Shown: piece by piece, positions 10,423-56,883 of the stretch | Layout of the letters: every line of letters starts with the position of its first letter | How positions within the stretch are numbered: the first letter of the stretch is position 1 | Virus record (IMG/VR): IMGVR_UViG_3300031555_004037 | Reading direction: 5' to 3' (one strand) | DNA length: 64,000 nucleotides | From: a virus | Lineage: Duplodnaviria; Heunggongvirae; Uroviricota; Caudoviricetes | Notes under the pieces: model-generated | What the model was told of the DNA's origin: nothing | Databases searched by the model: none | The model's input: only the letters and a program-made list of their open reading frames with translations | Position numbers and translations under genes: made by a program

Positions 10423-10437
10423 AGGAGAAATTTACCT

Positions 10438-11451
10438 ATGAGAAGAGAACTTATTTTGTTAGGCTTGATTACTGTATTATGTTTTACTATGTTAGTTGGG
10501 TGTAAAGACAATACAGTAATTGATGATAATGGACACGGAACAACAACAGAAATTGATAGTATTGTTATTGAGGCAACAACAGAAACATCAACAGAAGATG
10601 TTGTTGTAGAAGATACTAGACCAGGTATCAATGAATCAATAATTACAAAAATTGAATGGGATAATGCAAAAAGATTAGCATTTCCATATACTTATGTTAT
10701 TGGGGATTATAGTTATCCATTAAATTTAAACTCTTTACCTACTTTATATATTACTGATACCTTAACAGAATATCCAAATGAAAATGAATGGACAGTAATA
10801 CCTATTTCTGATTATTTGAGAAATTCAAATTTTAGTAATGGTAAAGGCGACCTTTTATGTGAATATGTTGAAGATGGAAATACAACTGATGAAAATTGTG
10901 AATTAGTTGCAGTTATTGAAAATCCAAATAAACCTAAAAAGAAAGGTTCAGATAAAGTATATATGAAATTTCATACTATTGCTATTGTGTATGACGATTT
11001 CAGACTTAATACAAAAAAATATGAAGATATTCCATCAAATATTTACTATAAAGTATCACTAAAAGAATTAGAGAAAAATGGTATTTATAATAAATGTGGT
11101 TCAGACGAAACAAAAATCAATAGTTCTGTAAATGCTATAAATGATTTAATTGTAAATTATTTAGGTATGCCATCTAATATTTATAGTACAGTACCATATA
11201 GTGAATTAGATAATACTGCAAATCAAAGTTTTATTATTGAATGGTTATATGATGACGGTAGTAGATGTACTTTAACTATTAGTGAATATAATACTAATTT
11301 AGATAAGAAGAAAGATAATGATGTTGGTATTGAATTTACAGTAGATAGTTTATATTTTTATGGAAATGGAGAATTATTAACACAGAAATATACTCACGAA
11401 AGAGTAGTTCCAGAAGAGTATAAATATAATATTATAAATGATATTAAATAA
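10438..11451 (+). CDS. lipoprotein, paralogue of upstream gene (lipobox MLVGC)
   Basis: MRRELILLGLITVLCFTMLVGC; shared domain LIVNYLGMPSNIY...IEWLYDDGSRCTLTISEYNT. Confidence 0.6.
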   Translation: MRRELILLGLITVLCFTMLVGCKDNTVIDDNGHGTTTEIDSIVIEATTETSTEDVVVEDTRPGINESIITKIEWDNAKRLAFPYTYVIGDYSYPLNLNSLPTLYITDTLTEYPNENEWTVIPISDYLRNSNFSNGKGDLLCEYVEDGNTTDENCELVAVIENPNKPKKKGSDKVYMKFHTIAIVYDDFRLNTKKYEDIPSNIYYKVSLKELEKNGIYNKCGSDETKINSSVNAINDLIVNYLGMPSNIYSTVPYSELDNTANQSFIIEWLYDDGSRCTLTISEYNTNLDKKKDNDVGIEFTVDSLYFYGNGELLTQKYTHERVVPEEYKYNIINDIK

Positions 11452-15319: not shown

Positions 15320-16547
15320 ACAAATTGAAATTGTGGAAGACCCAATGAATGAAGTTACTTCAGATAAGATTTTTATGCCTCGTAAGATTAAAGACGAGAA
15401 TAATAATTACTTATATGACAAAAATGGTATCTTCTCTGAAAGAATTTTTGGTAAATTCAATAAATGTACTTGTGGTAATTTAACAAGACCTGGAATTTGT
15501 CCAGATTGTGATTGTAGAGTTTTGGATAGAAAGAATATTCCAAATTTCTATGTAAAATTCAAATTTGATTTACCTAATAGAGTAATTGATTATTCTGTTA
15601 TTGAAGATAAGAAGAATATTGCTTTAATTAATGATTTAATCAATTTTAGAGGTTTCTTATATGACGGAAATTATGTAGAATTTAATCTTAAAGAAGATAT
15701 GTCAATTTATGATGAAGATAAAATTATCTTTGGTAAAGACGCTGTTTTAAGTACAGGTTTTGTAACAGAAGAGTGGTATGAAGAAAATGTACATAGACTT
15801 ATTAGTATTCCTCATACATCATTTAGAAAGATTACTTTCCAAAATGAGAAATACATTGTAGGTCAATTAAATACTCTCTATATCAATATTATTCGTTTAA
15901 ATAATAAATATGACAAATATAAGAAAGATGGTAAATTAAATTATCTTAATGAATTAAATCTTCGTCATATTGTATGTAGAGAATTAGAATCATTATATGA
16001 AGCATTATTTATGATTTTAGCAAAGAATAAGCGTAATGTAATCACTAATGAGTTACAAGGTCAGCCAGAAACAGGTATGATTAGAGCAGTTATGACTAAT
16101 AATTTTAGTCTTGATGAAGATATTTTACTTATTGGTAGTTATTTTATTGAAACTCTTTATCCTAGATTATATAATCAACATACAGATAAAGATGGAAATA
16201 CAGATATTGATGAAATCAATCGTATTTTAAGAGAAGAAGAGTATTTAGTATTATTTAACAGACAGCCTACTATTGGTGCTAAATCTATTATTGCTATGAA
16301 ACCTATATTCTCTAAATTAGATACAGAGCAGTTCGTTATTCAAGCAAATCCTATTGTTTATGACGGTCTTGCTGCCGATGTAGATGGCGATACATTAAAT
16401 GTTATTGCTTTATATACAAAGGAATCTTGTGAAGAGGCTAGAAAGTTATTAGCAAGTAATAATTATATTGAGGGTTCTAATGCGTCTATTAGAAATGGTA
16501 TGCTTGAAGAGTTTGATTATGTTCAAACTATTTTAGAGGGGGAATAA
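15297..16547 (+). CDS. multisubunit RNA polymerase beta-prime-like subunit, N-terminal part
   Basis: Zinc finger CTCGN...CPDCDC; FNRQPTIGAKSI...ANPIVYDGLAADVDGDTLNV ~ LLNRAPTLHR...NADFDGDQMAV (divergent catalytic Asp triad). Confidence 0.7.
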   Translation: MTMKITIKQIEIVEDPMNEVTSDKIFMPRKIKDENNNYLYDKNGIFSERIFGKFNKCTCGNLTRPGICPDCDCRVLDRKNIPNFYVKFKFDLPNRVIDYSVIEDKKNIALINDLINFRGFLYDGNYVEFNLKEDMSIYDEDKIIFGKDAVLSTGFVTEEWYEENVHRLISIPHTSFRKITFQNEKYIVGQLNTLYINIIRLNNKYDKYKKDGKLNYLNELNLRHIVCRELESLYEALFMILAKNKRNVITNELQGQPETGMIRAVMTNNFSLDEDILLIGSYFIETLYPRLYNQHTDKDGNTDIDEINRILREEEYLVLFNRQPTIGAKSIIAMKPIFSKLDTEQFVIQANPIVYDGLAADVDGDTLNVIALYTKESCEEARKLLASNNYIEGSNASIRNGMLEEFDYVQTILEGE

Positions 16548-16550
16548 TTT

Positions 16551-16964: not shown

Positions 16965-16965
16965 T

Positions 16966-24946: not shown

Positions 24947-26860
24947 ATGGGAAGTAATTTATACACAGAAAATAGTATTGTTACTGAATCTCCAAGAGAA
25001 TTTACGAGAAGAGTTCCATCTACTTATTTAGGTTCTAGCAAAAAGAATACTAACCTTGTTAAGGAAATCTTTGCCAATGCTGCTGATGAACACAGTATTG
25101 GAAACTGTGATTACATCAAAGTATCTGTAGATACAGATAAAAACATTTATATCGTTGAAGATAATGGACAAGGTTTTCTTGTAAATGCAGGTATTGATGA
25201 AGACGGAGAAACAATTTTACAGCGTTCTTTTGATAAATTAAATACATCAGGTAAAACAACTCAAGATGGTGTTTATCAAGGTACTGCTTTAGGACTAAAT
25301 GGTATTGGTGCAAAACTTACTAACTGGTTATCAAAATCTTTAAATGTAGTTACATATAGAGATGGAGAATTTGAAGAATTAAATTTTACAGATGGTATTT
25401 TTGTTAATAGAAAAGTTGGTAAGAAAGATAGACATTCTGGAACAGTAGTTACTTGGCATCCAGATGAACAATTCTTTGCTGAAAATATTCCTGACGATTT
25501 AGCATTAAAATCACATTTTGAAATTATTGCAGCATTATGTCCAAAATTAACTATTGAATACACTTATAATGGAAATAAAACTGTATATAAAGAGCCTAAT
25601 GGAATTACTGCTTATGTAGAAAGAAAAGTAAATGGGAAAGAATTATTTGCAAATCGTTTCATTATGGAAAGAAATATCGGTAAAGATGTTCTTAATATTT
25701 GTTTAACTTATACATCTGATTATTCAGAAAATATTGACGCTTATGTAAATTTAGGACATACAGATGGTGGAGAGCATATTAAGTCATTCCATACAGCATT
25801 TACAAAGGCTGTAAATAAGTATGCTACTGAAACAAATTTACTTAAAAAGAGTGATAAGAATTTTAGTACAGCCGAAATTTCAGAGGGATTATATGTAGTA
25901 TTTAATATGACTACAACAACTGCAAAATATGACGCACAGAATAAATCAAGAATTGATGATATTGACTCAAAGATTATCAATGCAGTAGTTGGTGGAGATT
26001 TTGCTACTTGGTTAATCAATAATCCTACTGACGCTAAAATTATTGTTGAGAGAGCCTTAACTGCAAGAAAAGCAAGAGAGGCTGCACAGAAAGCAAAGGA
26101 AAAGATTAGAGATGCTGGTAAAGTAAATAAGAAAACATTATTTGTAGATTTACCATCAAAATTATCTGACGCATATCCAAAGAATAAGAAAGATAGAAGT
26201 AATTGTGAAATTTATATCACAGAGGGAGATTCTGCTGCGTCTTCTATCAATGCGACAAAGGATAGTACATTCCAAGCCTGTTTCCCTATTCGTGGTAAGG
26301 TATTATGTTGTCAAAAGGCTACACCAGATAAAGTATTTGGAAATCAAGAAATTTCAAATATTGCAAAAGCACTTGGTCTTGAAATTGACAAATCAACTGG
26401 AAAACTTATTTATGATGCAAAGAAATTAAGATATGTAAGAATTATTATTGCAACTGATGCCGATGCTGATGGTGACGATATTTCTTCATTATTATTAACT
26501 GTGTTTAATTGGTTATGTCCAGAACTTATTGAAAATGGACATATTTATAGAGTATATGGTGCATTATTTAAGGCAACTTTTAATGATGGAACATATATAA
26601 CATTCCAAAACGATGTGGAATTTGAAAATTGGAAAAAGACTAATAAGAAAGCATATAAGTTATCTCGTGCTAAAGGTCTTGGAGAATTAACAAAAGAAGA
26701 AACCTATGAACAGTTAATCAATCCCGAAACAAGAGATTTAAGAAGACTTGTTGCGTCCGATATGGATGAATTTAATAAGTATCTTGAAATGTTTAAGGGT
26801 GCTGATATTGAACCTCGTAGAGCATATCTTGAAGAACATCATAATGATTATGAAGAGTAA
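24947..26860 (+). CDS. type IIA DNA topoisomerase, ATPase/TOPRIM subunit (GyrB/ParE/T4 gp39-like)
   Basis: GHKL ATP-binding FANAADEH; TOPRIM EGDSAASS and IIATDADADGDD. Confidence 0.85.
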   Translation: MGSNLYTENSIVTESPREFTRRVPSTYLGSSKKNTNLVKEIFANAADEHSIGNCDYIKVSVDTDKNIYIVEDNGQGFLVNAGIDEDGETILQRSFDKLNTSGKTTQDGVYQGTALGLNGIGAKLTNWLSKSLNVVTYRDGEFEELNFTDGIFVNRKVGKKDRHSGTVVTWHPDEQFFAENIPDDLALKSHFEIIAALCPKLTIEYTYNGNKTVYKEPNGITAYVERKVNGKELFANRFIMERNIGKDVLNICLTYTSDYSENIDAYVNLGHTDGGEHIKSFHTAFTKAVNKYATETNLLKKSDKNFSTAEISEGLYVVFNMTTTTAKYDAQNKSRIDDIDSKIINAVVGGDFATWLINNPTDAKIIVERALTARKAREAAQKAKEKIRDAGKVNKKTLFVDLPSKLSDAYPKNKKDRSNCEIYITEGDSAASSINATKDSTFQACFPIRGKVLCCQKATPDKVFGNQEISNIAKALGLEIDKSTGKLIYDAKKLRYVRIIIATDADADGDDISSLLLTVFNWLCPELIENGHIYRVYGALFKATFNDGTYITFQNDVEFENWKKTNKKAYKLSRAKGLGELTKEETYEQLINPETRDLRRLVASDMDEFNKYLEMFKGADIEPRRAYLEEHHNDYEE

Positions 26861-28936
26861 TTGGAGGAACTTATGTCAAAAAAAGTAGAAATTCCATTTA
26901 ATGTAATTGACCAAGATATTATTGGGGAATTAAAGAAAAATTATATTATCTATGCAAATGAGTTAAATAAACATAGAGCAATTCCTTATATCTTAAATGG
27001 TCTAAAGCCTATTGCAGCACATATTATTTGGGCTATGAAAGCAAATAATAGAACACATAATAAGAATTATACAAAATCTGCAAAGGTTACAGGAGAAATT
27101 ATGAATTATTCTCCACACGGAGATTCATATGACTCTTGTGTGAGATTAGCACAAGACTTTATTTATCATATTCCATATATTGATGGACACGGTTCTTTTG
27201 GTTCTGCCATTGGTGGACCTACTCCTGGTGCTTCAAGATATACGGAAATGAGATTAAGTAAATTTATTGAAGATGTATTATTATATAATACAGATTTATT
27301 AGATATGGGGCTTAATTATCTTGAAGAAGATGAAGAACCTATTATCAATAATTGGGTGGCATTATTACCTTTAATGTTTATTACTAATACAACAGGTATG
27401 GGATATGCTACATCACAAACTTGGTCATCTGGAAATTTATATGAATTTAGAGAACAATTATTAAATTATCTTAATAATGGAGAAGTTGATTGTTCTAATA
27501 TTTATCCAGATTTCCCTACTGGTGGTATTATTGTAAATAAATCCGATATGAAGTCCTTATATGAAAATGGTAAGGGTACAATTAAACTTCGTGGTAAGGC
27601 AGAAGTTGATGGTAATACAATTAGAATTTTATCATTACCATATCAGAAATATCCAGAACAGTTTATTGAAGATATTAAAAAGTATGTTGCAAATAATGCA
27701 AATACCATTAAAGATGTTGCGAATATGTGTGGTATGAATGGCTTTTTAATTGAAATTGAATGTGACGATGGAACTGCTGAATATACATTAGAAACATTGT
27801 ATAAGAAAACTTGTTTACAGATTAGTATTTCTGACGAACATAAAGCAGTTATGCCTAATGGAGAAATTAAATTAGTATCACTTAAAGACTATATTGAATG
27901 TTTTGTAAATGCTAATATTGAGTTGGTTAAGAAAGAAGCACAACTTAATCTTGATAAAATTAGTTCAAGACTTGAAATTGTAGATGGTCTTTTATCAGCA
28001 TTAGACATTATTGATGATATTATTAAAGAAATTAAATCATCTAAATCAATGGACGATGCAAAGAAAACTCTTATGACTAAAACAATTAAAGGTCATAAAT
28101 TTACAGAAAGACAAGCCGATGCTATTGTTCATACACCACTTGGTAGATTAGCAAATCTTGAAAAGGTTAAATTACAAGATGAAAAAGAAGAATTAGAGAA
28201 AAAGAAAGCAGAAAATGAAAACTTATTAGTTGATTATAATGCACAGAAAACATTCTTCTTAAATAGATTTAATTCCCTTATTGATAAGTATGCTTGGGAA
28301 AGAAAAACAGAAGTAATTGATGTTATAATTGATGAAGAAATTGCTGAAAAAATTAAGAAACCTAGACAGTTAAAAGTAAAGAAAGAATATATGATAGTAT
28401 TAACTGCTGAAAATTGCTTAAAACGAGTTGAGGTGTCTAAATTTAGAGCAACTTCGGAAGATGAAAAGACAGTTCGAGTACAAGGAAATGAAAGAATTGT
28501 TTTAGTATCAAATCGTGGTAATATGTATAAGGTATTTTCAAATAAGATTGATGTTTGTATGCCTGCTGCATCTGGAACTGATATTGCAACTATTAGACCT
28601 GAAATCAATGATGAAAAGATTATTGCTATTTATTCATCAGATGTAACAATTCCTTATGTGTATTTTGTTACAAAAGAGGGTATGGGTAAAAAGGTTAAGT
28701 CTAAAGATGTTATTCAGTTATCAAAGGATATTGGAACAACTGTATGTGGTATGAAAACTGATACTGATGAAGTAATTGCAATTAAGTTACTTAATGAAAA
28801 TGAAAATATTGAAATCACAACTACAAAGAGAAAGTTAGTAGTTGAATCAGGTAAGCCACAAGGTAGACCTGCTGTTGGACATAAAGTAATTGAGTTAAAG
28901 AAAGACGAAACTATTACAGAAGTCCATTCAATTTAA
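26861..28936 (+). CDS. type IIA DNA topoisomerase, DNA cleavage subunit (GyrA/ParC/T4 gp52-like)
   Basis: LNGLKPIAAHIIWAM ~ GyrA DGLKPVHRRVLYAM; active-site Tyr motif GASRYTEMRLS ~ AAMRYTEIRLA. Confidence 0.85.
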   Translation: MEELMSKKVEIPFNVIDQDIIGELKKNYIIYANELNKHRAIPYILNGLKPIAAHIIWAMKANNRTHNKNYTKSAKVTGEIMNYSPHGDSYDSCVRLAQDFIYHIPYIDGHGSFGSAIGGPTPGASRYTEMRLSKFIEDVLLYNTDLLDMGLNYLEEDEEPIINNWVALLPLMFITNTTGMGYATSQTWSSGNLYEFREQLLNYLNNGEVDCSNIYPDFPTGGIIVNKSDMKSLYENGKGTIKLRGKAEVDGNTIRILSLPYQKYPEQFIEDIKKYVANNANTIKDVANMCGMNGFLIEIECDDGTAEYTLETLYKKTCLQISISDEHKAVMPNGEIKLVSLKDYIECFVNANIELVKKEAQLNLDKISSRLEIVDGLLSALDIIDDIIKEIKSSKSMDDAKKTLMTKTIKGHKFTERQADAIVHTPLGRLANLEKVKLQDEKEELEKKKAENENLLVDYNAQKTFFLNRFNSLIDKYAWERKTEVIDVIIDEEIAEKIKKPRQLKVKKEYMIVLTAENCLKRVEVSKFRATSEDEKTVRVQGNERIVLVSNRGNMYKVFSNKIDVCMPAASGTDIATIRPEINDEKIIAIYSSDVTIPYVYFVTKEGMGKKVKSKDVIQLSKDIGTTVCGMKTDTDEVIAIKLLNENENIEITTTKRKLVVESGKPQGRPAVGHKVIELKKDETITEVHSI

Positions 28937-28983: not shown

Positions 28984-29022
28984 TTGAATTAAACTAATAT
29001 ATAGTTTTATTGGAGGAAAATT

Positions 29023-30378
29023 ATGACAACAAAATACAACAAAAAGTGGTATAAACCAGAAAAGTTAAGTACCAAAATTTTATTAACTGTATTAATTTTA
29101 TTATTTATCAGAGTATGTTCTAATATTCCTATTCCTTTTATCAATAAGGAATATCTTGAAATTATGTTTGCTGATAATTCAGCATTTTCACTTATTAATA
29201 CATTTTCTGGTGGTTCATTTACTCAAATGTCCTTTATGGCATTAAGTGTAACACCTTATATTACTGCATCTATTGTTTTACAATTATTAACTATTGTATT
29301 TCCTAAATTAGCAGAAATTCCAAAGGGTAGTCCAGAAGATAAAAAGAAATGGGAAATTTGGCAATTTGTTGTTGGTATTATTTTAGGAATTACACAATCT
29401 ATTGGTGTAGCATTAACTTTTGGTAGACAAGGTTTAATTACACCTTATAATTTTGGAACAGTTGCTTTAACCGTATTATTATGGTCATTAGGTGCTATAA
29501 TTACTATTGGAGCAGGTACATATATTACTAAATGTTGTTTTGGAAATGGTATCTCACTTATTTTAACAATGAATATTATTTCTTCATTACCTGGAGATAT
29601 TCTTAATTTCTATAATATGTATATTAAGGGAGAGAATATTGGAAATATTATTATTGCTTGTTTAGTAGGTCTTTTAATTGTTTTAGGACTTATTTCAGCA
29701 ACAGTTATTCTTAATGGGGCACAGAAAGAAATCAATGTAATTTATTCTAAAAATGCTTATAAGAATGGTGGAAATAATAAATCTGTATCAACTATTCCAC
29801 TTAAATTGAATATTGCTGGTGTAATGCCTGTAATTTTTACATCAACATTATTCTCATTACCACTTATGTTTTTAACAAATTCTTCAAATAAAGTAGCACA
29901 AGCAATAGTACATATTTGTTCATCTACTTATTGGTTTGACGGAGAACATTGGTGGAGAACTATTGGATTTTTCTTATATGGTGCGTTAGTTATATTCTTT
30001 GCATATTTTTATACTGCTATTGTATTTAATCCATTTGAAATTGCACAGAATTTAAAGAAATCAGGTGCTTGTATTCCTGGTGTTCGACCTGGACAACCTA
30101 CCATTGAATATTTAACAAAGCAAAGTAAGTATTTAACTTTAATTGGTGCTGTTTATTTATTCTTATTAACTCAAATTCCTATGTTTATTATGCAATTTAC
30201 AGACTTGAGTTATTTATCATTTGGTGGTACTTCAATTATTATTATTGTTGGTGTAGTATTAGAAATTGCTACAACTCTTAAATCTGAAAGATTAAAATTT
30301 GCTTATACAAAAGCAACCTCAAGTAATTCATTTTTAGGTTTAAAAACAAATCAAAATGTAAGAAAGGGAGTATTTTAA
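29023..30378 (+). CDS. secY: SecY protein translocase subunit (mobile-element-encoded copy)
   Basis: FSGGSFTQMSFMALSVTPYITASIVLQLLT ~ FSGGAL...ALGIMPYISASIIIQLLT; GITQSIGVALTF ~ AIFQSIGIATGL; LKKSGACIPGVRPGQPTIEYL ~ [21 protein letters not shown]; 10 TM-like segments; not in spc-operon context. Confidence 0.9.
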   Translation: MTTKYNKKWYKPEKLSTKILLTVLILLFIRVCSNIPIPFINKEYLEIMFADNSAFSLINTFSGGSFTQMSFMALSVTPYITASIVLQLLTIVFPKLAEIPKGSPEDKKKWEIWQFVVGIILGITQSIGVALTFGRQGLITPYNFGTVALTVLLWSLGAIITIGAGTYITKCCFGNGISLILTMNIISSLPGDILNFYNMYIKGENIGNIIIACLVGLLIVLGLISATVILNGAQKEINVIYSKNAYKNGGNNKSVSTIPLKLNIAGVMPVIFTSTLFSLPLMFLTNSSNKVAQAIVHICSSTYWFDGEHWWRTIGFFLYGALVIFFAYFYTAIVFNPFEIAQNLKKSGACIPGVRPGQPTIEYLTKQSKYLTLIGAVYLFLLTQIPMFIMQFTDLSYLSFGGTSIIIIVGVVLEIATTLKSERLKFAYTKATSSNSFLGLKTNQNVRKGVF

Positions 30379-30537
30379 ATGAGAAGATTAAGAAATGAAT
30401 TAAAATCAATTAAATGGTTAAAGAGTGATGATGTAATGAAACAAACATTATTAGTGACAAGTGTGACAGTTTTAAGTGGTGCAATTCTATTAGGACTTGA
30501 CACTCTTGTACAATATATTATTGGAATTATCGTATAA
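30379..30537 (+). CDS. secE: SecE translocase subunit (52 aa; not in ORF track)
   Basis: MRRLRNELKSIKWLKSDDVMKQTLLVTSVTVLSGAILLGLDTLVQYIIGIIV ~ Bacillus SecE (K-x-x-W-P ... single TM ... LLD); RBS AAGGGAG; directly downstream of secY. Confidence 0.7.
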   Translation: MRRLRNELKSIKWLKSDDVMKQTLLVTSVTVLSGAILLGLDTLVQYIIGIIV

Positions 30538-30546: not shown

Positions 30547-31227
30547 ATGTTAATAACTGATGTTATGAAAATCTGTAAAATAAAATGGTTATACAAGGAT
30601 AATGAATTTTATTATTGTATGACCGACATAGTTACAGGTAAGGATATAATTATATATTCAAGTAATGACGAATATGATGAAGAAGATGATGAAGAAGATG
30701 AATATGAGGACGAATATGACGAAGATGAAATAGATATAGAAAATGTAGCTTGTTTTCGTGAAAGATTTTATGAAACATATATACAATGTTCAAAAACTTT
30801 AGATAATATAATACAATCTGTAATTCTTATTGGGGAATTTGAAGAAGATGTGGATTGTATTTATCTAAATGTAGCAAATCTTTGTATGTTTGCATTTGTA
30901 GATTGGATTTGTCACGCAGGATATTTAGAGTTAAATCATAGAAATCATACTGCCAAAATGAAAGATACAATTTCAAGAAAAACAATTACAGTAATGAATT
31001 GTTCAGATGAATGTGCTGAATCACTTCAAGATTTTGTAAATTTTATGGCAACAAATGAAAAAGTTGATTATTCTCTTAATGGTAAAAATACAATTTTATT
31101 TATGGGAACTAATTTAATGTATGACTTTGAAAAAATACAGTATGATAATATATCTAACGATTTGACTTTTGGAGATTTAGAACATCTTTATATGGAATTA
31201 TTTGAATATATGTTATATGATAAATAA
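30547..31227 (+). CDS. highly acidic hypothetical protein
   Basis: DEYDEEDDEEDEYEDEYDEDEIDIEN; between secE and the flotillin gene. Confidence 0.45.
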   Translation: MLITDVMKICKIKWLYKDNEFYYCMTDIVTGKDIIIYSSNDEYDEEDDEEDEYEDEYDEDEIDIENVACFRERFYETYIQCSKTLDNIIQSVILIGEFEEDVDCIYLNVANLCMFAFVDWICHAGYLELNHRNHTAKMKDTISRKTITVMNCSDECAESLQDFVNFMATNEKVDYSLNGKNTILFMGTNLMYDFEKIQYDNISNDLTFGDLEHLYMELFEYMLYDK

Positions 31228-31250: not shown

Positions 31251-32780
31251 ATGAATGGACTAATTTCATTTGGAACAACTTTTGTTGTAATTGCTGTTAT
31301 TTTTGCAATTATTATTATTTTCACAAGTTATGTGAAAGCACCACCTGATAAAGCATATATTATTTCAGGTTTAAGAAGGAAACCAAAGATTTTAATTGGT
31401 AGAGCTGGATTAAAAATTCCGTTCTTTGAAAGAAAAGACGAATTGTTAATTAAGCAGATTTCTATTGATATTAAGACAGGCGATTATGTACCTACATTAG
31501 ATTTCATTGGTGTTAATATTGACGCTGTTGCAAAAGTCAAAGTTAGAACTGATGAAGAGGGTATTCAGTTGGCAATGAAGAACTTCCTTAATATGAGAGA
31601 AGACGCTATTATGAGTGCATTAGTTGATTCTTTACAAGGTAATATGAGAGAAATTATTGGTACTATTACTCTTAAAGATTTGTGTAATGATAGAAAGAAA
31701 TTCGGTGACGAAATTCAGAGTAAAGCACAGATTGATATGAATAATCTTGGTATTGAAATTATTTCTTGTAACATTCAGCACGTTGAAGACCAAAATGATT
31801 TAATCATTGCTTTAGGTCAAGATAATATGGCAAAAATTCAGAAAGATGCGTCAATCGCAAAGGCTATGGCTGATAGAGATGTTGCTATTGCACAAGCACA
31901 AGCAGAAAAAGAAGCAAATGACGCAAAAGTTCAATCAGATACAGAAATTGCTATTAAGCAAAATGAGTTGGCTATTAAGAGAGCAGAACTTAAAACTATT
32001 GAAGATGCTAAAAAGGCAGAGGCAGACGCTGCATATAAGATTCAAGAAGAAGAGCAGAGAAAGTCTATTGAGGTATCAACTGCTAATGCAGATATTGCTC
32101 GTCAAGAGAAAGAAATTGAATTAAAGAGAAAAGAGGCTGAAGTTCAAGAACAGGCACTTGACGCACAGATTAAGAAACAAGCAGAGGCAGAAAGATTTGC
32201 TAAACAACAAGCAGCAGACGCAGAATTGTATGAAAGACAGAGAAATGCAGAGGCAGAAAAGTTTGAATTAGAAAAACAAGCAGAGGCAAGAAAAGCACAG
32301 GCTGATGCAGACAGATATGCAAGAGAGCAAGAGGCAGAGGGTATTGCTGCTGTTGGTAAAGCAGAGGCAGAGGCTATTGCAGCTAAAGGTAAAGCAGAAG
32401 CAGAAGCACTTGAAAAGAAAGCCGAAGCAATGAAGAAATATGGACAAGCAGCAATTATTGAAATGATTGTTGATAAGTTACCAGATATTGCAGCATCAGT
32501 TGCTAAACCTTATGGAGATATTGATAACTTTACAGTTATTGACGGTGGAAATGGCGAGGGCAATAGTGTAGGTAATTTAGTACCACAGAATATTGCTAGT
32601 ACAAGAAAAGTAATCAATGATTTACTTGGTGTTGATATTGCTGATTTAGTTAGAGCAGATACATATGACGCTAAAGTAAATAAGAATGTAACAGTTAGTG
32701 GATTAGAGAATTTACAGTCTGTTACCGTAAATAATGAGTGTAATACTACACCAACAACTACAACAGTTGTAGAAGAATAA
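31251..32780 (+). CDS. flotillin-like SPFH/band-7 protein (FloT/YqiK-like)
   Basis: N-terminal TM; SPFH domain (YIISGLRRKPKILIGRAGLKIPFFE...); long Ala/Glu-rich coiled coil (AEAEA repeats) typical of flotillins. Confidence 0.8.
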   Translation: MNGLISFGTTFVVIAVIFAIIIIFTSYVKAPPDKAYIISGLRRKPKILIGRAGLKIPFFERKDELLIKQISIDIKTGDYVPTLDFIGVNIDAVAKVKVRTDEEGIQLAMKNFLNMREDAIMSALVDSLQGNMREIIGTITLKDLCNDRKKFGDEIQSKAQIDMNNLGIEIISCNIQHVEDQNDLIIALGQDNMAKIQKDASIAKAMADRDVAIAQAQAEKEANDAKVQSDTEIAIKQNELAIKRAELKTIEDAKKAEADAAYKIQEEEQRKSIEVSTANADIARQEKEIELKRKEAEVQEQALDAQIKKQAEAERFAKQQAADAELYERQRNAEAEKFELEKQAEARKAQADADRYAREQEAEGIAAVGKAEAEAIAAKGKAEAEALEKKAEAMKKYGQAAIIEMIVDKLPDIAASVAKPYGDIDNFTVIDGGNGEGNSVGNLVPQNIASTRKVINDLLGVDIADLVRADTYDAKVNKNVTVSGLENLQSVTVNNECNTTPTTTTVVEE

Positions 32781-32842: not shown

Positions 32843-34651
32843 ATGTGGAAGAAAATTAGAGAATGGTTTAAAAAGAATAGGGGTTTAATTATTATTAGTT
32901 TTTTAGCCTCTATTATTACAATAACAATTTTACAAAATCGTCAATTATCTCAACAGCCTGAAATTAAAACCATTTCATATCAAGAATTTGAACAACTTGT
33001 AGAAGAAGAAAAAGTAGATAGTATCTATTATAATAAATCAAATGAATGGATGACTATTACTTTATTTAATGTTGAATCAAAAACATTAGATGCAAAAGAG
33101 AGATTAAATTATCAAGGATATACAAATGAAGATAAAAGAAATGTATCATATCCAGCATATGAAGAATTTAGGCACGATATGTTGAGTAATAATATAAATA
33201 TGATAATTGTAGACCCAAAAGTGTCTTTTATTGAAAAAGCATTATCAATCGTTTCTTTAATGTTTCCGTTATTATGGGTTTTTATTATTATGAGAATGTT
33301 AATTAGTTCTACTCAAGGAAATGTTAAAAGAAAAGAAATTATACAAACAAGTAATGTAAAATTTACTGATATTATTGGTCACGAAGAGATATTAGAAGAT
33401 GTTAAATTCATTACTGAACTTATTAAAAACCCTAAACTTGGAGATGATATAGGGGCAAAAGTTCCTAAAGGTATTTTATTAAGTGGAGAACCAGGTACAG
33501 GAAAAACTCTTATTGCAAAAGCAATCGCAGGAGAGGCAGGAGTACCATTCTTATATCAAAATGCGTCAAGTTTTATAGATAGATTTGTCGGTATGGGTGC
33601 AAAAAATGTTCGTGATTTATTTAAACTTGCAAAAGAAAATGCCCCTTGTGTATTATTTATAGATGAAATTGACGCTATTGGTGGAAATAGAAATAATGGT
33701 AAGGGTACATCTGAAAATGACCAAACAATAAATGCGTTATTACAAGAAATGGATGGTTTTACAGGTAGAGAGGGAATTTTTATAATTGCTGCTACTAATA
33801 GACCTGATATTCTTGATAGTGCTTTGGTTAGAGCAGGACGATTTGATAGACAAATTATTGTATCTGCCCCTAGAGATTGGGGAGTTAGAAAAGATTTATT
33901 TGAACATTATCTAAATAAATTTAAAGTTTTAGATGATGTAAATATAGTAAATTTAAGTAAACAAACAGCAGGATTTACTGGTGCTGATATTGCTGCAATT
34001 TGTAATGAGGCTAGTATTATTGCAGTTATGCAAGAAAAAGACGCTATTGATATGGATTGTATTGAAGAGGCTATTGATAAGAAAATCTTTAAAGGAAATC
34101 GTGCTAAAAAAGAGAAATACTTTGAAGATAAAAAGATTGTTGCTTATCACGAATCTGGACACGCTGTTATGAGTTATTTATTAGGAGAACCTATTGCTAG
34201 AGCAAGTATTCAATCTACTGTTTCTGGTGTTGGTGGTGTAGTATTTAATGAAGATAAAGATAGTGTATTTCAAACTAATATTGACTTTGAGAATAGAGTT
34301 TTGATATGCTATGCTGGTAGAGCATCAGAAGAAATTAAATTCAACTCTGTTACAACTGGTGCTTCTAATGATATTACACAAGCAACAAATGTTATGATGA
34401 ACTACATAGAAAAATTTGGTTTTGATAAAGAATTTGGTTTATTAGATATTGGTGTTTTAAGTAAGGAACATTTAATCAATAGTGAAGAAATTACTAATAA
34501 ATTAAGTAATATGTCTAGGAATTTATATGAAAAAAGTTTATCATTATTAAAAGATAACTATAAATTAGTAGAAACTTTGGCTAATAAATTATTAGATGTT
34601 GGAACATTATCTGGTGACGAAATTACAGAATTATTTAATAACTGTAATTAA
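32843..34651 (+). CDS. ftsH: FtsH-family membrane AAA+ zinc metalloprotease
   Basis: Two N-terminal TM helices; Walker A GEPGTGKT; Walker B VLFIDEIDAIG; second region of homology ATNRPDILDSALVRAGRFDRQ; HEXXH HESGHAV. Confidence 0.9.
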   Translation: MWKKIREWFKKNRGLIIISFLASIITITILQNRQLSQQPEIKTISYQEFEQLVEEEKVDSIYYNKSNEWMTITLFNVESKTLDAKERLNYQGYTNEDKRNVSYPAYEEFRHDMLSNNINMIIVDPKVSFIEKALSIVSLMFPLLWVFIIMRMLISSTQGNVKRKEIIQTSNVKFTDIIGHEEILEDVKFITELIKNPKLGDDIGAKVPKGILLSGEPGTGKTLIAKAIAGEAGVPFLYQNASSFIDRFVGMGAKNVRDLFKLAKENAPCVLFIDEIDAIGGNRNNGKGTSENDQTINALLQEMDGFTGREGIFIIAATNRPDILDSALVRAGRFDRQIIVSAPRDWGVRKDLFEHYLNKFKVLDDVNIVNLSKQTAGFTGADIAAICNEASIIAVMQEKDAIDMDCIEEAIDKKIFKGNRAKKEKYFEDKKIVAYHESGHAVMSYLLGEPIARASIQSTVSGVGGVVFNEDKDSVFQTNIDFENRVLICYAGRASEEIKFNSVTTGASNDITQATNVMMNYIEKFGFDKEFGLLDIGVLSKEHLINSEEITNKLSNMSRNLYEKSLSLLKDNYKLVETLANKLLDVGTLSGDEITELFNNCN

Positions 34652-34691
34652 AATAAAATAAAATAAAATAAAATAAAATAAAATAAAATAA
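34648..34691. repeat. (AAAAT)n pentanucleotide microsatellite, about 8-9 units
   Basis: TAAAATAAAATAAAAT... fills the spacer between the ftsH stop and the RBS of the giant surface-protein gene. Confidence 0.9.
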
Positions 34692-34708
34692 GAAAGGGAA
34701 GGTATTTT

Positions 34709-37700
34709 ATGAAAAGCAAAAGATTAAAAACTCGAATTTTGGCATTATTTTTAACTATGTTGCTTGTTACTAATTCTCCATTAGTTGCTATGGCTGAAAA
34801 TAATCCATCATTTGTAGAAGACGAAATAGTTACTACCGAAGAAACAACTACAGAAGAAGTAACTACGGAAGAGGTAACTACGGAAGAAATTATAACAGAA
34901 GAAGTAACAACAGAGGAAATCACAACGGAGGAAATCACAACAGAAGAAGTTGTAACCGAAGAGATTACGACAGAAGAAACAACTACAGAAGATGTAATAG
35001 AAGAAATACCTATTACATTTAATCTTAATAGAAATACTTTAGTTGAATATTGTGTTCCGTCTGAAGTAATAACTAAAATTGAATCTACTACATTTACACA
35101 TCAAACAACAGAATATAATAAATATGAATTGATTACAGATAATGCAGTAGATAATAACAATAATGTTTGGTATGTTTATTCTGTTAAGAGTGTTTTAGAC
35201 GATGAAGTAATAACTTTAGGTAATGTTATATTCCCTAAATCAGTTAAAATAGAAGATACCTTAATTATTCCTGCGTCTGTAACAGATTCCGAAACTTATT
35301 CAGTATATGGTGTAGGTAATAGTAGTTTTAAAGACGCAAATATAATTAACACATTAGAAATTGAATCTGGAATAAGGACTATTGAAGATTCAGCATTTGA
35401 AAATTGTGGTGTTTCAAACATAACATTATCAGATACAATTATATCTTTTGGTTCGTCAGTATTTGCTAATAATGATAATCTTACATCATTTACTTTTCCG
35501 ACAAATCCAGCATTTGTTGAAACAGGTTATAAAGTTTTATATGATTGTAATAATTTAACATCAATTACATTAGGAGAGAATATTAAAGTTATTTCAGCAG
35601 AATCATTCTATCAATGTAATAAATTGACTAATGTAGTCATTCCAGACGGTTTACAAGCAATATTATATAGAGCATTTGCAAAAACTGCTATAACAGAAAT
35701 CAATTTAAAGAATATAACTGGATTAGGTGCTCAATCATTTGAACATTGTTATAATCTTGAAACTATTGATTGGGGTGCTTGTTTATGGGGTGGAAAGATT
35801 GATTATAGAACTTTCTATATGTGTAATTCATTAAAAGAAATCAATATACCTGATAATGTTGAGGTTGTAGGAACTGACGCTTTTAATGGTTGTACATCTG
35901 TTACAAGCATTGACTTGAATAATGTTATTCAAATTGAATATTGTGGATTTGCTAATACAGGTATTACTGAATTGACAATTCCTGAATCCGTTAAATCAAT
36001 GGGTGCATTTTCATTTGGTAATACCACAAATCTTGAAACTGTAACATTTAAAAATGATATTAGAATTTATATTAGTGATGATTCAGCACCAAGTAAACAA
36101 TTATTTATAGTATTTGGTAAATTAACATATAATGAGCCTAGTGATACTTGGAATAATGACGGTGGTGCTTGGAAAAATGATGTTATTAAAAAAATAATAA
36201 TAGATAATGAAAATATTACAGATTGTACTTTTGTTCCAAATGGAATGTTTCAGTATATGGGAATTGAAGAGGTTATTCTTTCTGATAATATTTCCACATT
36301 AAATTATCAAGCATTTTTTGATTGTAAAAATTTAAAGACTATTAAAGCAAATAAATTAAATGCAATTCAAGATTCAGTATTTCAGAATTGTACTTCATTA
36401 GAAGAAATAAATCCAACTGACGATGTAAAAATTAACTTTCCAGATACACTTTATTGGATAGGTACTAATGCCTTTTTTAAGTGTAGTTCATTAGGAGATG
36501 TTACATTAGATAAAAACATTTTCCATATTGGTAATAGTGCTTTTTATAACTCTGGTATTACTAATCTTGTGATTGGTAATAATGTTACTGAAATCGGTTC
36601 TTCTGCATTTAAAGAATTAGTAAATTGTGAAAGCATATATATAGATGTTGAACCGTCTTTAGTAGAATATAGAGAATACGGAACAATGTTTTGGGGATGT
36701 ACTTCATTAGATACTTTAACTATTGGTAAAAATGTAACTACTCTTGAACCAAATTGTCTACAAAATATGGTCACAAAACATCTTATTTTTGAAGAGGGTA
36801 GCACAATTACTGAAATACCAAATCATTGTGTTTATGGAAATGCTAATCTTGAAAGTGTTGTTTTACCAGAAAATTTAATAACAATTAGTGAAGAGGCATT
36901 TCAAGCCTGTTATTCTTTAAAAAGTATTGAATTACCAAATACAATTACTACAATTAAAAGAAATGGTTTCTTTGGATGTCATTCACTTGAAACAATAACT
37001 GGTTTAGAGAATGTTGAGTATATTGGTAATCACGCTTTCTTTAACAATATAAATCTTAAAGAAGTATATATTGGGGAAAATGTTAATTATTTAGGTGCAG
37101 CATCATTCTTTAATACTTATTCACTTGAAAAAGTTACTATTGATAATAAGTATATGATTGATGAAACTACAGGAGAAACTATTTGTAAAACAAGTGAAAC
37201 TCAAACTGAACCACAAGTACAAAACTATCTTACTAGAGTATTTGGTAGAGATGATAGAAATTTTGACCATAATGGTTTAGCATCACATTTAAACTTTAAT
37301 AAAGAAAATTGTACACCACAACATTCATATTTTGAATTAATAATTACTGATAAAGTAGCACAATTACAAGATTATGAGTGTGAGGGTATGTATGTAAGTA
37401 AAGTTACTATTCAAGATAATGGAAAACTTACTGAAATTCCTTATATGTGTTTTAGTAATTGTGAATATTTAGAAACAGTTAATTTAGGTACAATAAATAA
37501 AATTGATAAATACGCATTTACTTGTTGTACAAGTCTAACTGAAATTGAATTACCAATGTCTGTAACTAATGTTGGAGAATATGCTTTTTCTGGTTGTGAT
37601 TCACTAGAAGAAATATATTTATGGAATCCTGATGTTAAAATAGAAAATTATGAGGGTAGTGAATTAAAACACGCTACTGAAATAGTAAATGGTGGTTCAA

Positions 37701-56053: not shown

Positions 56054-56059
56054 AAAGGA

Positions 56060-56849: not shown

Positions 56850-56855
56850 AATTAT

Positions 56856-56883
56856 TTACAAATATTAGATAATGTGTTATAAT
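56856..56883 (+). promoter_or_regulatory. sigma-A-like promoter TTACAA -16- TGtTATAAT
   Basis: Identical architecture to the 54897 promoter; drives the ligase C-terminal gene. Confidence 0.5.

What the first reader, a model, noticed from the sequence alone, without database searches (positions are those of the whole stretch)
29023..30537. Phage-borne SecY plus SecE pair in non-canonical context
SecY is recognisable through conserved blocks: FSGG...PYITASIVLQLLT, QSIGVALTF, and LKKSGACIPGVRPGQPTIEYL. A 52-aa SecE-like ORF (KSIKWLKSDD + one TM + LGLDTLVQYIIGII) follows directly and is missing from the ORF track. Chromosomal secY lies between rplO and adk, and secE lies before nusG. Here the two are adjacent and flanked by topoisomerase and acidic-protein genes, which is the hallmark of an accessory or mobile copy.
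Basis: partly seen in the sequence, partly recalled or inferred. Interest (0 to 1): 0.9.

Follow-up and report, generated by a model that had tools for sequence, protein, structure and literature searches.

The report
Huge-phage-encoded SecY–SecE protein channel
A giant, very AT-rich gut/rumen mobile genome, most likely a huge phage of Gram-positive Clostridia, carries its own intact copy of the two core subunits of the universal protein-export channel (SecY and SecE) next to a membrane protease, which no described phage is known to do.

Summary
29023-30378 (+) encodes a full-length canonical SecY: Pfam 258.7 bits, TIGR00967 294 bits (cutoff 253.6), ten TM helices, plug, hydrophobic pore ring, and TM-score 0.79-0.84 to T. 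thermophilus SecY. The abutting 52-aa ORF 30379-30537 is a single-TM SecE (Pfam 37.5 bits, cutoff 22.7).

The pair does not sit in the rplO-secY-adk or secE-nusG context. It follows GyrB-GyrA and precedes an acidic ORF, a flotillin, FtsH and a 1,727-aa sortase-anchored BspA-like surface protein.

The exact SecY lies on 317-324 kb contigs of 27% GC. About 30 diverged SecY clusters (42-98% identity), each with SecE where I looked, lie on contigs up to 504 kb with the same gyrase/FtsH synteny. They form one clade (bootstrap 99.5%) that is sister to Lachnospiraceae SecY and separate from the recently described 'Hodor' megaplasmid SecYGE.

The element looks viral. It has a 740-aa RNA polymerase beta homologue only 9-16% identical to any known one, a UvsX-like recombinase, homing endonucleases and inteins, and relatives filed in IMG/VR. 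No virion gene was seen, so 'phage' is probable (~0.8), not proven.

Most likely function: a phage-supplied translocon core that keeps export of phage lipoproteins and surface proteins running.

The parts
29012..29016 (+). Shine-Dalgarno GGAGG, 6 nt upstream of the secY ATG
   Evidence: Read directly from the sequence.
29023..30378 (+). secY: 451-aa canonical-type SecY channel subunit
   Evidence: Pfam SecY 258.7 bits; TIGR00967 294 bits, above the 253.6 cutoff. Full-length alignment to E. coli SecY. Pore ring V76/I80/I177/L181/I271/I407 and R355 (= Ec R357). AF2 pLDDT 75 with 10 TM helices. Foldseek TM 0.79/0.84 to 5aww_Y.
30364..30370 (+). Shine-Dalgarno AAGGGAG for secE, inside the 3' end of secY. 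The secY TAA (30376-30378) abuts the secE ATG (30379).
   Evidence: Read directly from the sequence. The arrangement suggests translational coupling; this is an inference.
30379..30537 (+). secE: 52-aa single-TM SecE
   Evidence: Pfam SecE 37.5 bits, above GA 22.7. TIGR00964 26.5 bits, below the 27.55 cutoff. Aligns to E. coli SecE residues 73-121. A SecE ORF follows secY in the six relatives inspected, two of them diverged by up to 57%.
30547..31227 (+). Acidic 226-aa ORF with its own AAGGAG SD. This is a variable third gene of the cluster, not a conserved partner.
   Evidence: No Pfam, NCBIfam or PHROG family. Only 2 homologues in 5.8 billion proteins. The positional equivalents in L001, L106 and L107 are unrelated lipoproteins.
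31251..32780 (+). Flotillin (FloT-like SPFH scaffold) with an N-terminal membrane anchor
   Evidence: Pfam Band_7 and Flot; NCBIfam FloT 294.6 bits, below its cutoff. Present in this sublineage only; it is absent between SecE and FtsH in L004.
32843..34651 (+). FtsH membrane AAA+ zinc protease. It has 2 TM segments, Walker A and B, an SRH motif and HESGH.
   Evidence: Pfam AAA, Peptidase_M41 and FtsH_ext; TIGR01241 477 bits. Motifs confirmed. An FtsH gene lies within about 8.5 kb of secY in every family locus inspected.
34709..39892 (+). 1,727-aa BspA-type LRR / Big_2 surface protein. It has a Sec signal peptide (…VAMA|EN) and a C-terminal SPETG + TM + KKYKK cell-wall sorting signal. It is a candidate cargo.
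   Evidence: Pfam LRR_5 397 bits, Big_2, Flg_new, SdrD_B. N- and C-terminal features.
24947..28936 (+). gyrB-gyrA, the conserved upstream neighbours of secY-secE in this lineage
   Evidence: Pfam. Synteny in L001, L004, L096, L106 and L107.
9562..11451 (+). Two predicted lipoprotein genes (lipoboxes LCGC and LVGC); candidate Sec/Lsp cargo
44520..45458 (+). Lipoprotein DNA/RNA non-specific endonuclease (lipobox LVGC); candidate cargo
   Evidence: Pfam Endonuclea_NS_2. Lipobox.
62918..63667 (+). Predicted lipoprotein (lipobox LVGC); candidate cargo
13097..16547 (+). Divergent multisubunit RNA polymerase beta (740 aa) and beta' fragment (416 aa). This is the main evidence that the carrier is viral and not a cell or plasmid.
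   Evidence: Only the catalytic motifs hit Pfam, NCBIfam and PHROG RNAP models. The AF2 model (pLDDT 83) superposes on beta subunits at 9-16% identity.

Best explanation
A huge phage (≥317-324 kb, 27% GC) that infects a Gram-positive, probably clostridial, gut or rumen bacterium encodes its own SecY-SecE heterodimer, the minimal core of the Sec protein-conducting channel.

The pair was captured once from a Lachnospiraceae-like host. It has since been inherited vertically and kept under purifying selection.

secY and secE are expressed together. Each has its own SD site and the stop and start codons abut. Stoichiometric co-expression would matter because SecY without SecE is unstable.

The complex inserts into the host membrane and is driven by the host's SecA or ribosome-SRP. 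It keeps membrane insertion and export running through a long infection in which host gene expression is shut down or host translocons are jammed. Its cargo would be the phage's own many envelope proteins: at least four lipoproteins, the sortase-anchored 1,727-aa BspA-like protein just downstream, and FtsH, flotillin and other membrane proteins.

The linked phage FtsH (plus a flotillin scaffold in this sublineage) supplies quality control of the translocon and of membrane proteins.

Shown: gene identity and intactness, conserved functional residues, conserved pairing and synteny, monophyly and sister group, and the presence of Sec-dependent cargo genes. Inferred: assembly in the host membrane, use of host SecA/SRP, timing, the selective benefit, and the FtsH/flotillin role.
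For: Identity and integrity
- In 29 family members the pore-ring positions are aliphatic, apart from T at position 177 in two members (I80, L181, I271 and I407 invariant). R355 and the GNGxS and PGxRPG motifs are invariant.
- All members are 429-454 aa.

Selection
- pN is below pS in all 15 pairwise comparisons, with dN/dS about 0.17-0.64 and dS near saturation.
- SecY diverges at the same rate as the neighbouring GyrA and FtsH: 53-64% against 55-67% and 63-64% identity.
- The region's GC (0.278) equals the window mean.

Conserved pair and synteny on giant contigs (312 kb L001, 364 kb L004, 317 kb L096, 465 kb L104, 200 kb L107; clusters reach 504 kb)
-.
- SecE alignment.

Phylogeny
- Family monophyly 99.5%, sister to Lachnospiraceae 99%, never grouped with Hodor-like SecY.
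- The best GTDB genome hits are Lachnospiraceae at ≤41% identity.

Cargo
- 21 of 70 window ORFs have TM-like segments.
- There are four lipoboxes, and one protein with a signal peptide plus an SPETG sorting signal.
- In L001, L106 and L107 the gene directly after secE is itself a lipoprotein.

Viral nature of the carrier
- Divergent RNAP.
- UvsX-like recombinase closest to Clostridium phages.
- GIY-YIG and T5orf172 homing endonucleases and inteins.
- Anti-Pycsar Apyc1 genes in relatives.
- No tRNA or rRNA.
- Gyrase-defined relatives of 332-467 kb are filed in IMG/VR.
- FtsH has precedent in isolated jumbo phages such as PA5oct.

Established knowledge, not tested here
- SecYE is the minimal functional channel.
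- Uncomplexed or jammed SecY is degraded by FtsH (Kihara, Akiyama & Ito 1995; van Stelten et al. 2009).
- B. subtilis flotillins have been linked to FtsH and the Sec machinery (Yepes et al. 2012; Bach & Bramkamp 2013).
Against: - No virion, terminase or lysis gene was seen in the window or in any ±10 kb flank read. The carrier could therefore be a non-viral giant element.
- No SecA, SecG, YidC, SRP, signal peptidase or sortase gene was found in the window. Function depends entirely on unverified compatibility with host partners.
- The pair is dispensable in some relatives. IMG/VR members L108-L111 have no SecY near GyrA, and L113 keeps only a 5'-truncated SecE remnant.
- There are roughly 120-166 RNAP-beta clusters in the clade against about 32 SecY clusters.
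- SecE replaces the usual W-P hinge with W-L and narrowly misses the TIGR00964 cutoff.
- There are no expression or protein data of any kind.
Confidence: 0.6

Rival explanations
1. The carrier is not a phage. It is another kind of giant extrachromosomal element (a megaplasmid or chromid, as the Hodors turned out to be) that resides stably in a clostridial host. Its SecYE serves export of the element's own surface proteins during long-term carriage.
For: - Hodor megaplasmids carry SecY-SecG-SecE next to sortase and giant surface proteins, and were first filed as huge phages.
- Hodor-like loci are present in IMG/VR, so IMG/VR filing is weak evidence of viral nature.
- The window has a PilT/VirB11-superfamily ATPase and a weak TcpE-like ORF.
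- A sortase-anchored giant surface protein follows the cluster.
- No virion gene was seen.
Against: - No Rep_3, ParA/B, VirB4 or VirD4 was found in the window ORFs of ≥100 aa that were scanned, about 55 of 65.
- GC is 27% against 44-47% for Hodors, there is no SecG, and the SecY clade is separate.
- Plasmids are not known to encode their own multisubunit RNAP, and this element has a very divergent one.
- There is a UvsX-like recombinase, many homing endonucleases and inteins, and anti-Pycsar genes in relatives.
Confidence: 0.15
2. The window is a piece of the chromosome of a very reduced, low-GC bacterium, and this is simply its housekeeping secY/secE after operon rearrangement. A relative is deposited as 'MAG: Bacilli bacterium'.
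For: - P0022 (MBQ8218580.1) is named SecY [Bacilli bacterium] and lies on a 504 kb contig.
- Gyrase, FtsH, DnaB, primase, ligase and RecA-like genes are all present.
Against: - There is no tRNA, rRNA, other Rfam RNA or ribosomal protein in 64 kb.
- About half of the ORFs scanned match no family.
- The RNAP beta is 740 aa and only 9-16% identical to any known beta subunit.
- The family is absent from 185,579 GTDB species representatives, where the best hits are Lachnospiraceae at ≤41%.
- The recombinase is UvsX-like and the ligase is split by a mobile cassette.
Confidence: 0.03
3. The phage SecYE is not a working exporter. It is a decoy or dominant-negative channel. It titrates host SecA/SRP or replaces host SecY to shut down host secretion, to block entry of competitors that exploit SecY (superinfection exclusion, toxins that use SecY), or to resist a host defence that targets the translocon.
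For: - The family sits on a long branch, 35-42% identical to its nearest cellular clade.
- The SecE hinge proline is lost.
- SecY-dependent import of CDI toxins shows the translocon can serve as an entry route (paper PMC7858069, listed).
- The pair is dispensable in some relatives.
Against: - Every feature needed for transport is conserved over deep divergence: pore ring, plug, the C5 arginine that contacts SecA and the ribosome, the C4 hairpin, and the SecE partner.
- A pure decoy would not need them.
- The element encodes many Sec-dependent proteins of its own.
Confidence: 0.12
4. The secY-secE pair is an assembly chimera or a recently captured, functionless host fragment.
For: - Most SecY hits in GenBank 'phage' records look like short host-derived contaminants at 30-34% identity.
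- Jumbo-phage pipelines treat 'preprotein translocase' as a contamination flag.
Against: - The identical gene is found on 15 independent contigs from ENA, JGI and Logan assemblies with identical flanks.
- Its GC equals the surroundings.
- About 30 diverged family members keep the same neighbours.
- dN is below dS throughout.
- No cellular SecY is closer than about 43%.
Confidence: 0.01

Closest known systems
Canonical bacterial SecYE(G) translocon, nearest cellular relatives Lachnospiraceae (Clostridia) SecY
   Same: - The same fold, ten TM helices, plug, aliphatic pore ring, and C4/C5 cytoplasmic loops with the conserved Arg.
- It passes the canonical SecY equivalog model.
- SecE is the single-TM Gram-positive type.
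   Different: - Only 35-42% identical to the nearest cellular clade.
- Not in the rplO-secY-adk or secE-nusG operons.
- secY and secE are fused into one cluster behind gyrB-gyrA on a 27% GC, ≥317 kb non-cellular replicon.
- No SecG and no SecA nearby.
- The SecE W-P hinge reads W-L.
'Hodor' conjugative megaplasmid Sec module (hyp-SecY-SecG-SecE with trigger factor and sortase B; bioRxiv 10.64898/2026.02.21.707213)
   Same: - Core translocon genes clustered on a >300 kb extrachromosomal element of gut Bacillota.
- They lie close to genes for giant sortase-anchored surface proteins.
- The element class was overlooked or misfiled by standard pipelines.
   Different: - An independent acquisition: a separate SecY clade, 28-32% identical, 0 of 200 bootstraps joint.
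- No SecG, trigger factor or sortase next to the pair.
- GC is 27% against 44-47%.
- The neighbours are gyrase, FtsH and flotillin.
- The carrier has phage-type replication and transcription genes, not Rep_3, Par or T4SS genes.
Accessory SecA2/SecY2 system of Gram-positive bacteria
   Same: A second, non-housekeeping SecY in the infected cell, possibly dedicated to a large cell-wall-anchored surface protein.
   Different: - It fails both SecY2 models and passes the canonical SecY model.
- No SecA2, Asp1-5 or glycosyltransferases are present.
- It is partnered by a true SecE.
- A more SecY2-like arrangement (SecA - divergent SecY - SecG-like) does exist in a related IMG/VR contig (L112/L199), but that SecY is unrelated to this family.
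FtsH genes of isolated jumbo phages (for example Pseudomonas phage PA5oct)
   Same: A precedent for huge phages carrying host-type membrane quality-control machinery. The window FtsH is 34% identical over 85% of its length.
   Different: Those phages carry no SecY or SecE. Here FtsH is linked to the translocon genes across the lineage.
Organelle-encoded SecY (plastids, jakobid mitochondria)
   Same: SecY is retained on a small, AT-rich, non-nuclear or non-chromosomal genome.
   Different: Organelle copies are relics of an endosymbiont chromosome. This one was captured by a mobile element.

Membership tests
SecY/Sec61-alpha (PF00344; TIGR00967 canonical bacterial SecY) | Full-length profile match above the curated cutoffs | tested here: met
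   Pfam 258.7 bits (GA 32.2), profile 1-305/306. TIGR00967 294 bits (cutoff 253.6), profile 2-409/414.
SecY/Sec61-alpha | Ten TM helices in two pseudo-symmetric halves, with a plug helix (TM2a) and a cytoplasmic C4 hairpin | tested here: met
   AF2 helices at 15-33, 77-97, 104-138, 144-171, 176-201, 206-232, 268-284, 310-334, 360-392 and 402-432; plug 56-61; hairpin 234-261. Foldseek TM 0.79/0.84 to 5aww_Y.
SecY/Sec61-alpha | Ring of six hydrophobic pore residues, and the conserved C5-loop Arg (Ec R357) | tested here: met
   V76, I80, I177, L181, I271, I407 and R355. Positions 80, 181, 271 and 407 and R355 are invariant in 29 family members.
SecY/Sec61-alpha | Conducts polypeptides with SecA or the ribosome | not testable with these tools
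   Needs complementation or in vitro translocation experiments.
SecE/Sec61-gamma (PF00584; TIGR00964) | Profile match above the curated cutoff | tested here: met
   Pfam 37.5 bits (GA 22.7), profile 5-55/55. The stricter TIGR00964 equivalog gives 26.5 against 27.55, marginally below.
SecE/Sec61-gamma | Amphipathic cytoplasmic helix followed by one tilted TM that clamps SecY | tested here: met
   Aligns to E. coli SecE 73-121, the essential segment. One TM-like segment at 26-44. The motif IKW(L/V)xxKDVxxQT is conserved in five family loci. Contact with SecY was not modelled.
Accessory SecY2 (TIGR02920 / NF009082) | SecY2 equivalog score above the cutoff | tested here: not met
   124.4 against 249.6 bits, and 132.9 against 353 bits.
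Accessory SecY2 (TIGR02920 / NF009082) | Linked SecA2, Asp1-3 and glycosyltransferases | tested here: not met
   None among the window ORFs scanned.
Hodor megaplasmids | hyp-SecY-SecG-SecE order with trigger factor and sortase B nearby | tested here: not met
   secE abuts secY with no SecG. No trigger factor or sortase in the window. Hodor-like loci L008 and L011-L015 do show SecY, an 80-aa SecG and SecE.
Hodor megaplasmids | GC 44-47%; Rep_3, ParA/B/M; VirB4/VirD4/VirB6 T4SS | tested here: not met
   GC is 0.22-0.33, mean about 0.27. None of these families is in the window. The rest of the genome was not seen.
Hodor megaplasmids | SecY belongs to the Hodor clade | tested here: not met
   0 of 200 NJ bootstraps join the two clades; identity is 28-32%.
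Tailed huge phage (Caudoviricetes, genome >200 kb) | Large terminase, HK97-fold major capsid protein, portal and tail genes on the same replicon | tested here: inconclusive
   None were found in the window or the flanks read. However, only about 84 kb of ≥317 kb was visible, and it is the replication/early region. A ClpP-like protein on relative L104 matches PHROG head-maturation protease families, which is ambiguous.
Tailed huge phage (Caudoviricetes, genome >200 kb) | Phage-type replication, recombination and transcription genes and selfish elements | tested here: met
   UvsX-like recombinase, DnaB, primase, divergent multisubunit RNAP, GIY-YIG and T5orf172 endonucleases, inteins, and anti-Pycsar genes in relatives.

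The most novel reading that the evidence does not exclude
This would be the first virus-encoded protein-conducting channel. A diverse clade of 300-500 kb gut and rumen phages of Gram-positive bacteria carries its own membrane-protein biogenesis and quality-control set: SecY-SecE with FtsH, a flotillin in this sublineage, and in one related contig an independently acquired SecA-SecY-SecG-like cluster. The set would be used to rebuild the envelope of the infected cell with phage lipoproteins and sortase-anchored adhesins. [quoted passage not shown]
Probability: 0.55. Interest if true: 0.85.

Novelty: new variant of a known kind. Interest (0 to 1): 0.75.

Why it matters
- SecY is one of the few genes universal to cellular life and is routinely used as a cellular marker. 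Finding an intact, selected SecY-SecE pair on a viral (or at least non-cellular) genome extends the list of core cellular machines that giant viruses of bacteria can own, from translation factors and ribosomal proteins to the export channel itself.
- It makes a concrete question testable: does a phage need to replace or supplement the host translocon to remodel the cell surface during a long infection?
- It has a practical consequence. Two published jumbo-phage pipelines explicitly exclude contigs annotated with 'preprotein translocase' or 'DNA gyrase subunit A' (PMC13037316, PMC12826114). Both genes sit side by side here, so this clade would be filtered out. This may be why no SecY-bearing member was found in the IMG/VR copy scanned or in GenBank phage records.
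- It shows that translocon capture by giant mobile elements has happened at least three times independently: this family, the Hodors, and L112.

Tried and rejected
- **Single-sequence SecY scan of IMG/VR.** It found nothing. A family-profile scan found only Hodor-like and other unrelated SecYs at 29-36% identity.
- **GenBank phage searches.** Megablast of 20 kb found nothing. tblastn with SecY gave only 30-34% hits, mostly short records that look host-derived.
- **Hunt for virion hallmark genes.** I ran PHROGs and Pfam on about 55 window ORFs, read ±10 kb beyond both window ends, and read six relatives' SecY loci and two relatives' RNAP loci. No terminase, capsid or portal turned up.
- **RNAP beta fold.** I folded it hoping for a specific match to phiKZ or AR9 polymerases. 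It proved equidistant from all beta subunits, so it is informative only as 'not cellular'.
- **The acidic ORF after secE as a conserved third subunit or chaperone.** Rejected. It has 2 homologues only, and unrelated genes occupy that position in relatives.
- **SecG.** None was found. The 79-aa 2-TM ORF 19397-19636 has no family.
- **Promoter and terminator scan.** Not above the shuffled background in this AT-rich DNA.
- **tRNA and Rfam scans.** Both empty.
- **Strain-level dN/dS.** Contigs are identical or differ at 2 sites, which is uninformative. Deep pairs are near saturation.
- **SecY2 membership.** Considered and rejected.
- **Hodor membership.** Considered and rejected.
Full report

Yes.
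- It matches Pfam SecY over the whole profile (258.7 bits, E 1e-76).
- It passes NCBI's canonical SecY equivalog TIGR00967 (294 bits, cutoff 253.6).
- phmmer aligns residues 15-432 to E. coli SecY 19-433 without large gaps.

Mapping that alignment gives a hydrophobic pore ring V76/I80/I177/L181/I271/I407 (E. coli I82/I86/I187/I191/I278/I408). It also gives a conserved plug region (FSGG) and the C5-loop arginine R355 (E. coli R357) inside IPGVRPG.

An AlphaFold2 model built on 29 family sequences (pLDDT 75, pTM 0.71) has ten TM helices, a plug helix and the C4 beta-hairpin. It superposes on T. thermophilus SecY with TM-score 0.79/0.84.

The next ORF, 30379-30537 (+), begins on the base after the secY TAA.
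- It scores 37.5 bits on Pfam SecE (GA 22.7) and 26.5 bits on TIGR00964 (cutoff 27.55, just under).
- It aligns to the essential amphipathic helix plus last TM of E. coli SecE.
- Both genes have Shine-Dalgarno sites: GGAGG at 29012-29016 and AAGGGAG at 30364-30370.

**2. Context in the window**

Gene order around the pair:

| Coordinates | Gene |
|---|---|
| 24947-26860 | gyrB |
| 26861-28936 | gyrA |
| 29023-30378 | secY |
| 30379-30537 | secE |
| 30547-31227 | acidic 226-aa ORF, no family |
| 31251-32780 | FloT-like flotillin |
| 32843-34651 | FtsH, with intact Walker A/B, SRH and HESGH motifs |
| 34709-39892 | 1,727-aa BspA-type LRR protein |

The BspA-type protein has a classical signal peptide and a C-terminal SPETG + hydrophobic + KKYKK cell-wall sorting signal. 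That points to a monoderm host with a clostridial-type sortase.

There is no rplO, adk or nusG. 29 of 30 cellular secY loci fetched from GTDB genomes carry an Adk P-loop on the same strand (position relative to secY not restricted). None of the window or family loci does.

The window has 22-33% GC and almost all genes lie on one strand. It encodes:
- a UvsX-like recombinase, DnaB and primase;
- a PD-(D/E)XK nuclease, thymidine kinase and a UvrD-like helicase;
- an intein-containing SNF2 helicase;
- a split NAD-ligase;
- GIY-YIG endonucleases, a PilT-like ATPase and many ORFans.

It has no tRNA and no Rfam RNA.

**3. What carries it?**

The identical SecY occurs on 15 contigs, including ENA ERZ28436105 NODE_4 (317,515 bp) and three JGI metagenomes. 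Its cluster reaches a 323,839-bp contig.

The element encodes a multisubunit RNA polymerase whose beta subunit is only 740 aa. Its confident AF2 model (pLDDT 83) aligns over about 1,000 columns with bacterial, plastid and giant-virus beta subunits, but at 9-16% identity. Only the catalytic motifs register in Pfam, NCBIfam and PHROGs. No cell has such a polymerase, and plasmids are not known to encode one.

Other signs of a virus:
- The recombinase is nearest to Clostridium phage UvsX-like proteins.
- Relatives carry anti-Pycsar Apyc1 genes, serpins, TnpB insertions and inteins.
- A gyrase-profile scan placed relatives of 332-467 kb in IMG/VR.

Against this, I never saw a terminase, capsid, portal or tail gene. 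Only about 84 of ≥317 kb was readable and it is the replication region. The Hodor megaplasmids show that IMG/VR-type filing can be wrong.

I put 'huge phage' at about 0.8, another giant extrachromosomal element at about 0.15, and a cell at no more than 0.03.

**4. A conserved family, acquired once**

The 5.8-billion-protein search found about 32 SecY clusters at 45-98% identity on contigs up to 504 kb. It then dropped to 41-43% for Lachnospiraceae SecY. GTDB species representatives contain no family member; the best hits are Lachnospiraceae at ≤41%.

Neighbourhoods of six members and of a deeper relative (P0035, 464 kb) were read. They show:
- secY followed by a 52-79-aa SecE in every case;
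- gyrB-gyrA directly or closely upstream, except in P0035/L104;
- FtsH within about 8.5 kb.

Bootstrapped NJ on 432 columns gives family monophyly 99.5%, family + P0035 99.5%, and sister to Lachnospiraceae 99%. It gives 0% for any union with Hodor-like SecY. The taxon sampling was biased toward similar sequences, so the sister relationship needs an ML test.

Signs of selection and vertical inheritance:
- Functional positions are invariant across 29 members.
- pN is below pS in all 15 pairs.
- SecY diverges in step with the adjacent GyrA and FtsH.
- Its GC equals the surroundings.

Together these indicate one old capture, vertical descent and purifying selection. They rule out contamination or a dead passenger gene.

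The pair is not universal in the wider clade. IMG/VR relatives L108-L111 lack it. L113 retains a 5'-truncated SecE remnant between the flanking VanZ-like and lipoprotein genes, which is a deletion footprint. RNAP-beta clusters outnumber SecY clusters several-fold.

A further relative (L112/L199) has an unrelated cluster upstream of its gyrase: SecA (650 bits), a divergent SecY (236 bits), a 69-aa 2-TM ORF and a SecG-like ORF. This is a separate acquisition.

**5. How it most likely works**

Shown:
- an intact, canonical-type SecY with all transport-critical features;
- a cognate SecE immediately downstream with abutting stop and start codons;
- linkage to FtsH;
- an element rich in Sec-dependent proteins. 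21 of 70 window ORFs have TM-like segments. Four are lipoproteins with lipoboxes, including a non-specific nuclease. One is a giant signal-peptide plus sortase-signal protein 60 bp after FtsH. In three relatives the gene right after secE is a lipoprotein.

Inferred from established Sec biology:
- SecYE is the minimal channel.
- SecY lacking SecE, or jammed SecY, is removed by FtsH.
- Flotillins have been linked to FtsH and Sec components in B. subtilis.

From these I infer that the phage co-produces SecY and SecE stoichiometrically and inserts them into the host membrane. It uses host SecA or ribosome-SRP as the motor, since no motor gene was seen. This secures export and insertion of phage envelope proteins through a long infection while host gene expression declines. 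Phage FtsH, with flotillin in this sublineage, provides quality control.

Confidence in this mechanism is about 0.6. Confidence that this is a functional SecYE on a non-cellular giant replicon is about 0.9.

The main functional rival is a decoy or exclusion role (about 0.12). It fits the long branch and the dispensability, but it does not explain conservation of every transport residue.

**6. Comparison with what is known**

The proteins are members of the SecY and SecE families (membership table). The SecY is not a SecY2.

The only mobile-element precedent found in 8 million papers is the Hodor megaplasmid SecY-SecG-SecE module. This locus differs in SecY clade, gene content, GC and carrier.

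No paper in the library reports a phage-encoded SecY or SecE. FtsH alone is known in jumbo phages such as PA5oct.

Two jumbo-phage catalogues explicitly discard contigs annotated 'preprotein translocase' or 'DNA gyrase subunit A'. Both genes are adjacent here.

**7. Verdict**

In terms of novelty this is a new variant of a known kind: a canonical machine in a new carrier, with a new gene module. Interest is 0.75. It would be a real surprise for phage biologists and is directly testable, tempered by the Hodor precedent and by the missing virion genes.

Noticed in passing
L112 / L199 (IMGVR_UViG_3300008269_000105), L199:7876-11650: A gyrase-related huge-phage-like contig (129 kb, GC 30%) carries four adjacent genes between a primase gene and gyrB/gyrA. 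They are SecA (718 aa, 650 bits), a divergent SecY (407 aa, 236 bits, lacking the PGxRPG loop), a 69-aa 2-TM ORF and a SecG-like 71-aa ORF. This SecY never groups with the window family (0 of 100 bootstraps), so it is an independent capture of Sec genes.
   Followed up: partly
L113:12902-13051 (IMGVR_UViG_3300011005_000632, 332 kb): A 5'-truncated SecE remnant without a start codon lies between the VanZ-like gene and the lipoprotein gene that flank secY-secE in relatives. This is a footprint of secY deletion. L110 and L111 have lost the pair completely.
   Followed up: partly
window 34709-39892: The 1,727-aa BspA-type LRR / Big_2 / SdrD-like protein has a signal peptide and a C-terminal SPETG + TM + KKYKK sorting signal. 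The (S/P)PxTG form is the one used by clostridial sortases (from my own knowledge), which hints at the host group.
   Followed up: partly
window 54959-57706: An NAD-dependent DNA ligase is split into two ORFs: adenylation + OB at 54959-56053, and HhH + BRCT at 56915-57706. A nucleotidyltransferase/HEPN pair (56060-56849) is inserted between them.
   Followed up: no
window 49353-51833; L004:3267-5837: The window's SNF2 helicase contains an intein, and the GyrB of relative L004 also contains one. GIY-YIG and T5orf172 homing endonucleases are scattered through the window and its flanks.
   Followed up: no
window 57776-61230: A small cluster comprises a weak TcpE-like membrane ORF, an unknown 434-aa ORF, a PilT/PilU-family ATPase (183 bits; also hits TraJ, DotB and VirB11 models) and a YgjV-family membrane protein. 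It could be a pilus- or secretion-related module. It is the only feature in the window that hints at conjugation-like machinery.
   Followed up: partly
window 13097-17937: The multisubunit RNA polymerase genes are extremely divergent. The beta subunit is 740 aa and 9-16% identical to all known beta subunits. A 416-aa beta' fragment follows, and possibly a further fragment at 16966-17937 (weak phrog_25354 hit). More than 120 clusters of this beta exist on contigs up to 532 kb, which defines a large uncharacterised clade.
   Followed up: partly
window 44520-45458: A DNA/RNA non-specific endonuclease has a lipoprotein signal peptide, so it would be a surface-tethered nuclease exported by the infected cell.
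   Followed up: no
L096:15733-17246 versus window about 34652-34708: The 317.5 kb contig carrying the identical SecY has an IS200/IS605 Y1 transposase plus TnpB inserted between FtsH and the BspA-like gene. The insertion is absent from the window, so transposition is active within the population.
   Followed up: no
L007 (IMGVR_UViG_3300045988_182396, 192 kb, GC 33%), 9968-11236: A lone SecY (36% identical to the window's) groups with Peptostreptococcus, lies near the contig end, and is not followed by adk or SecE. It is either another mobile SecY or a host-virus junction.
   Followed up: no
L001, L106, L107 (gene after secE) and L001:9443-9985, L106:9677-9997: In one sublineage secY is preceded by a VanZ-like membrane protein, and secE is followed by a conserved lipoprotein and then an anti-Pycsar (Apyc1-like MBL) gene. 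In the window's sublineage these are replaced by an acidic ORF and a flotillin.
   Followed up: partly
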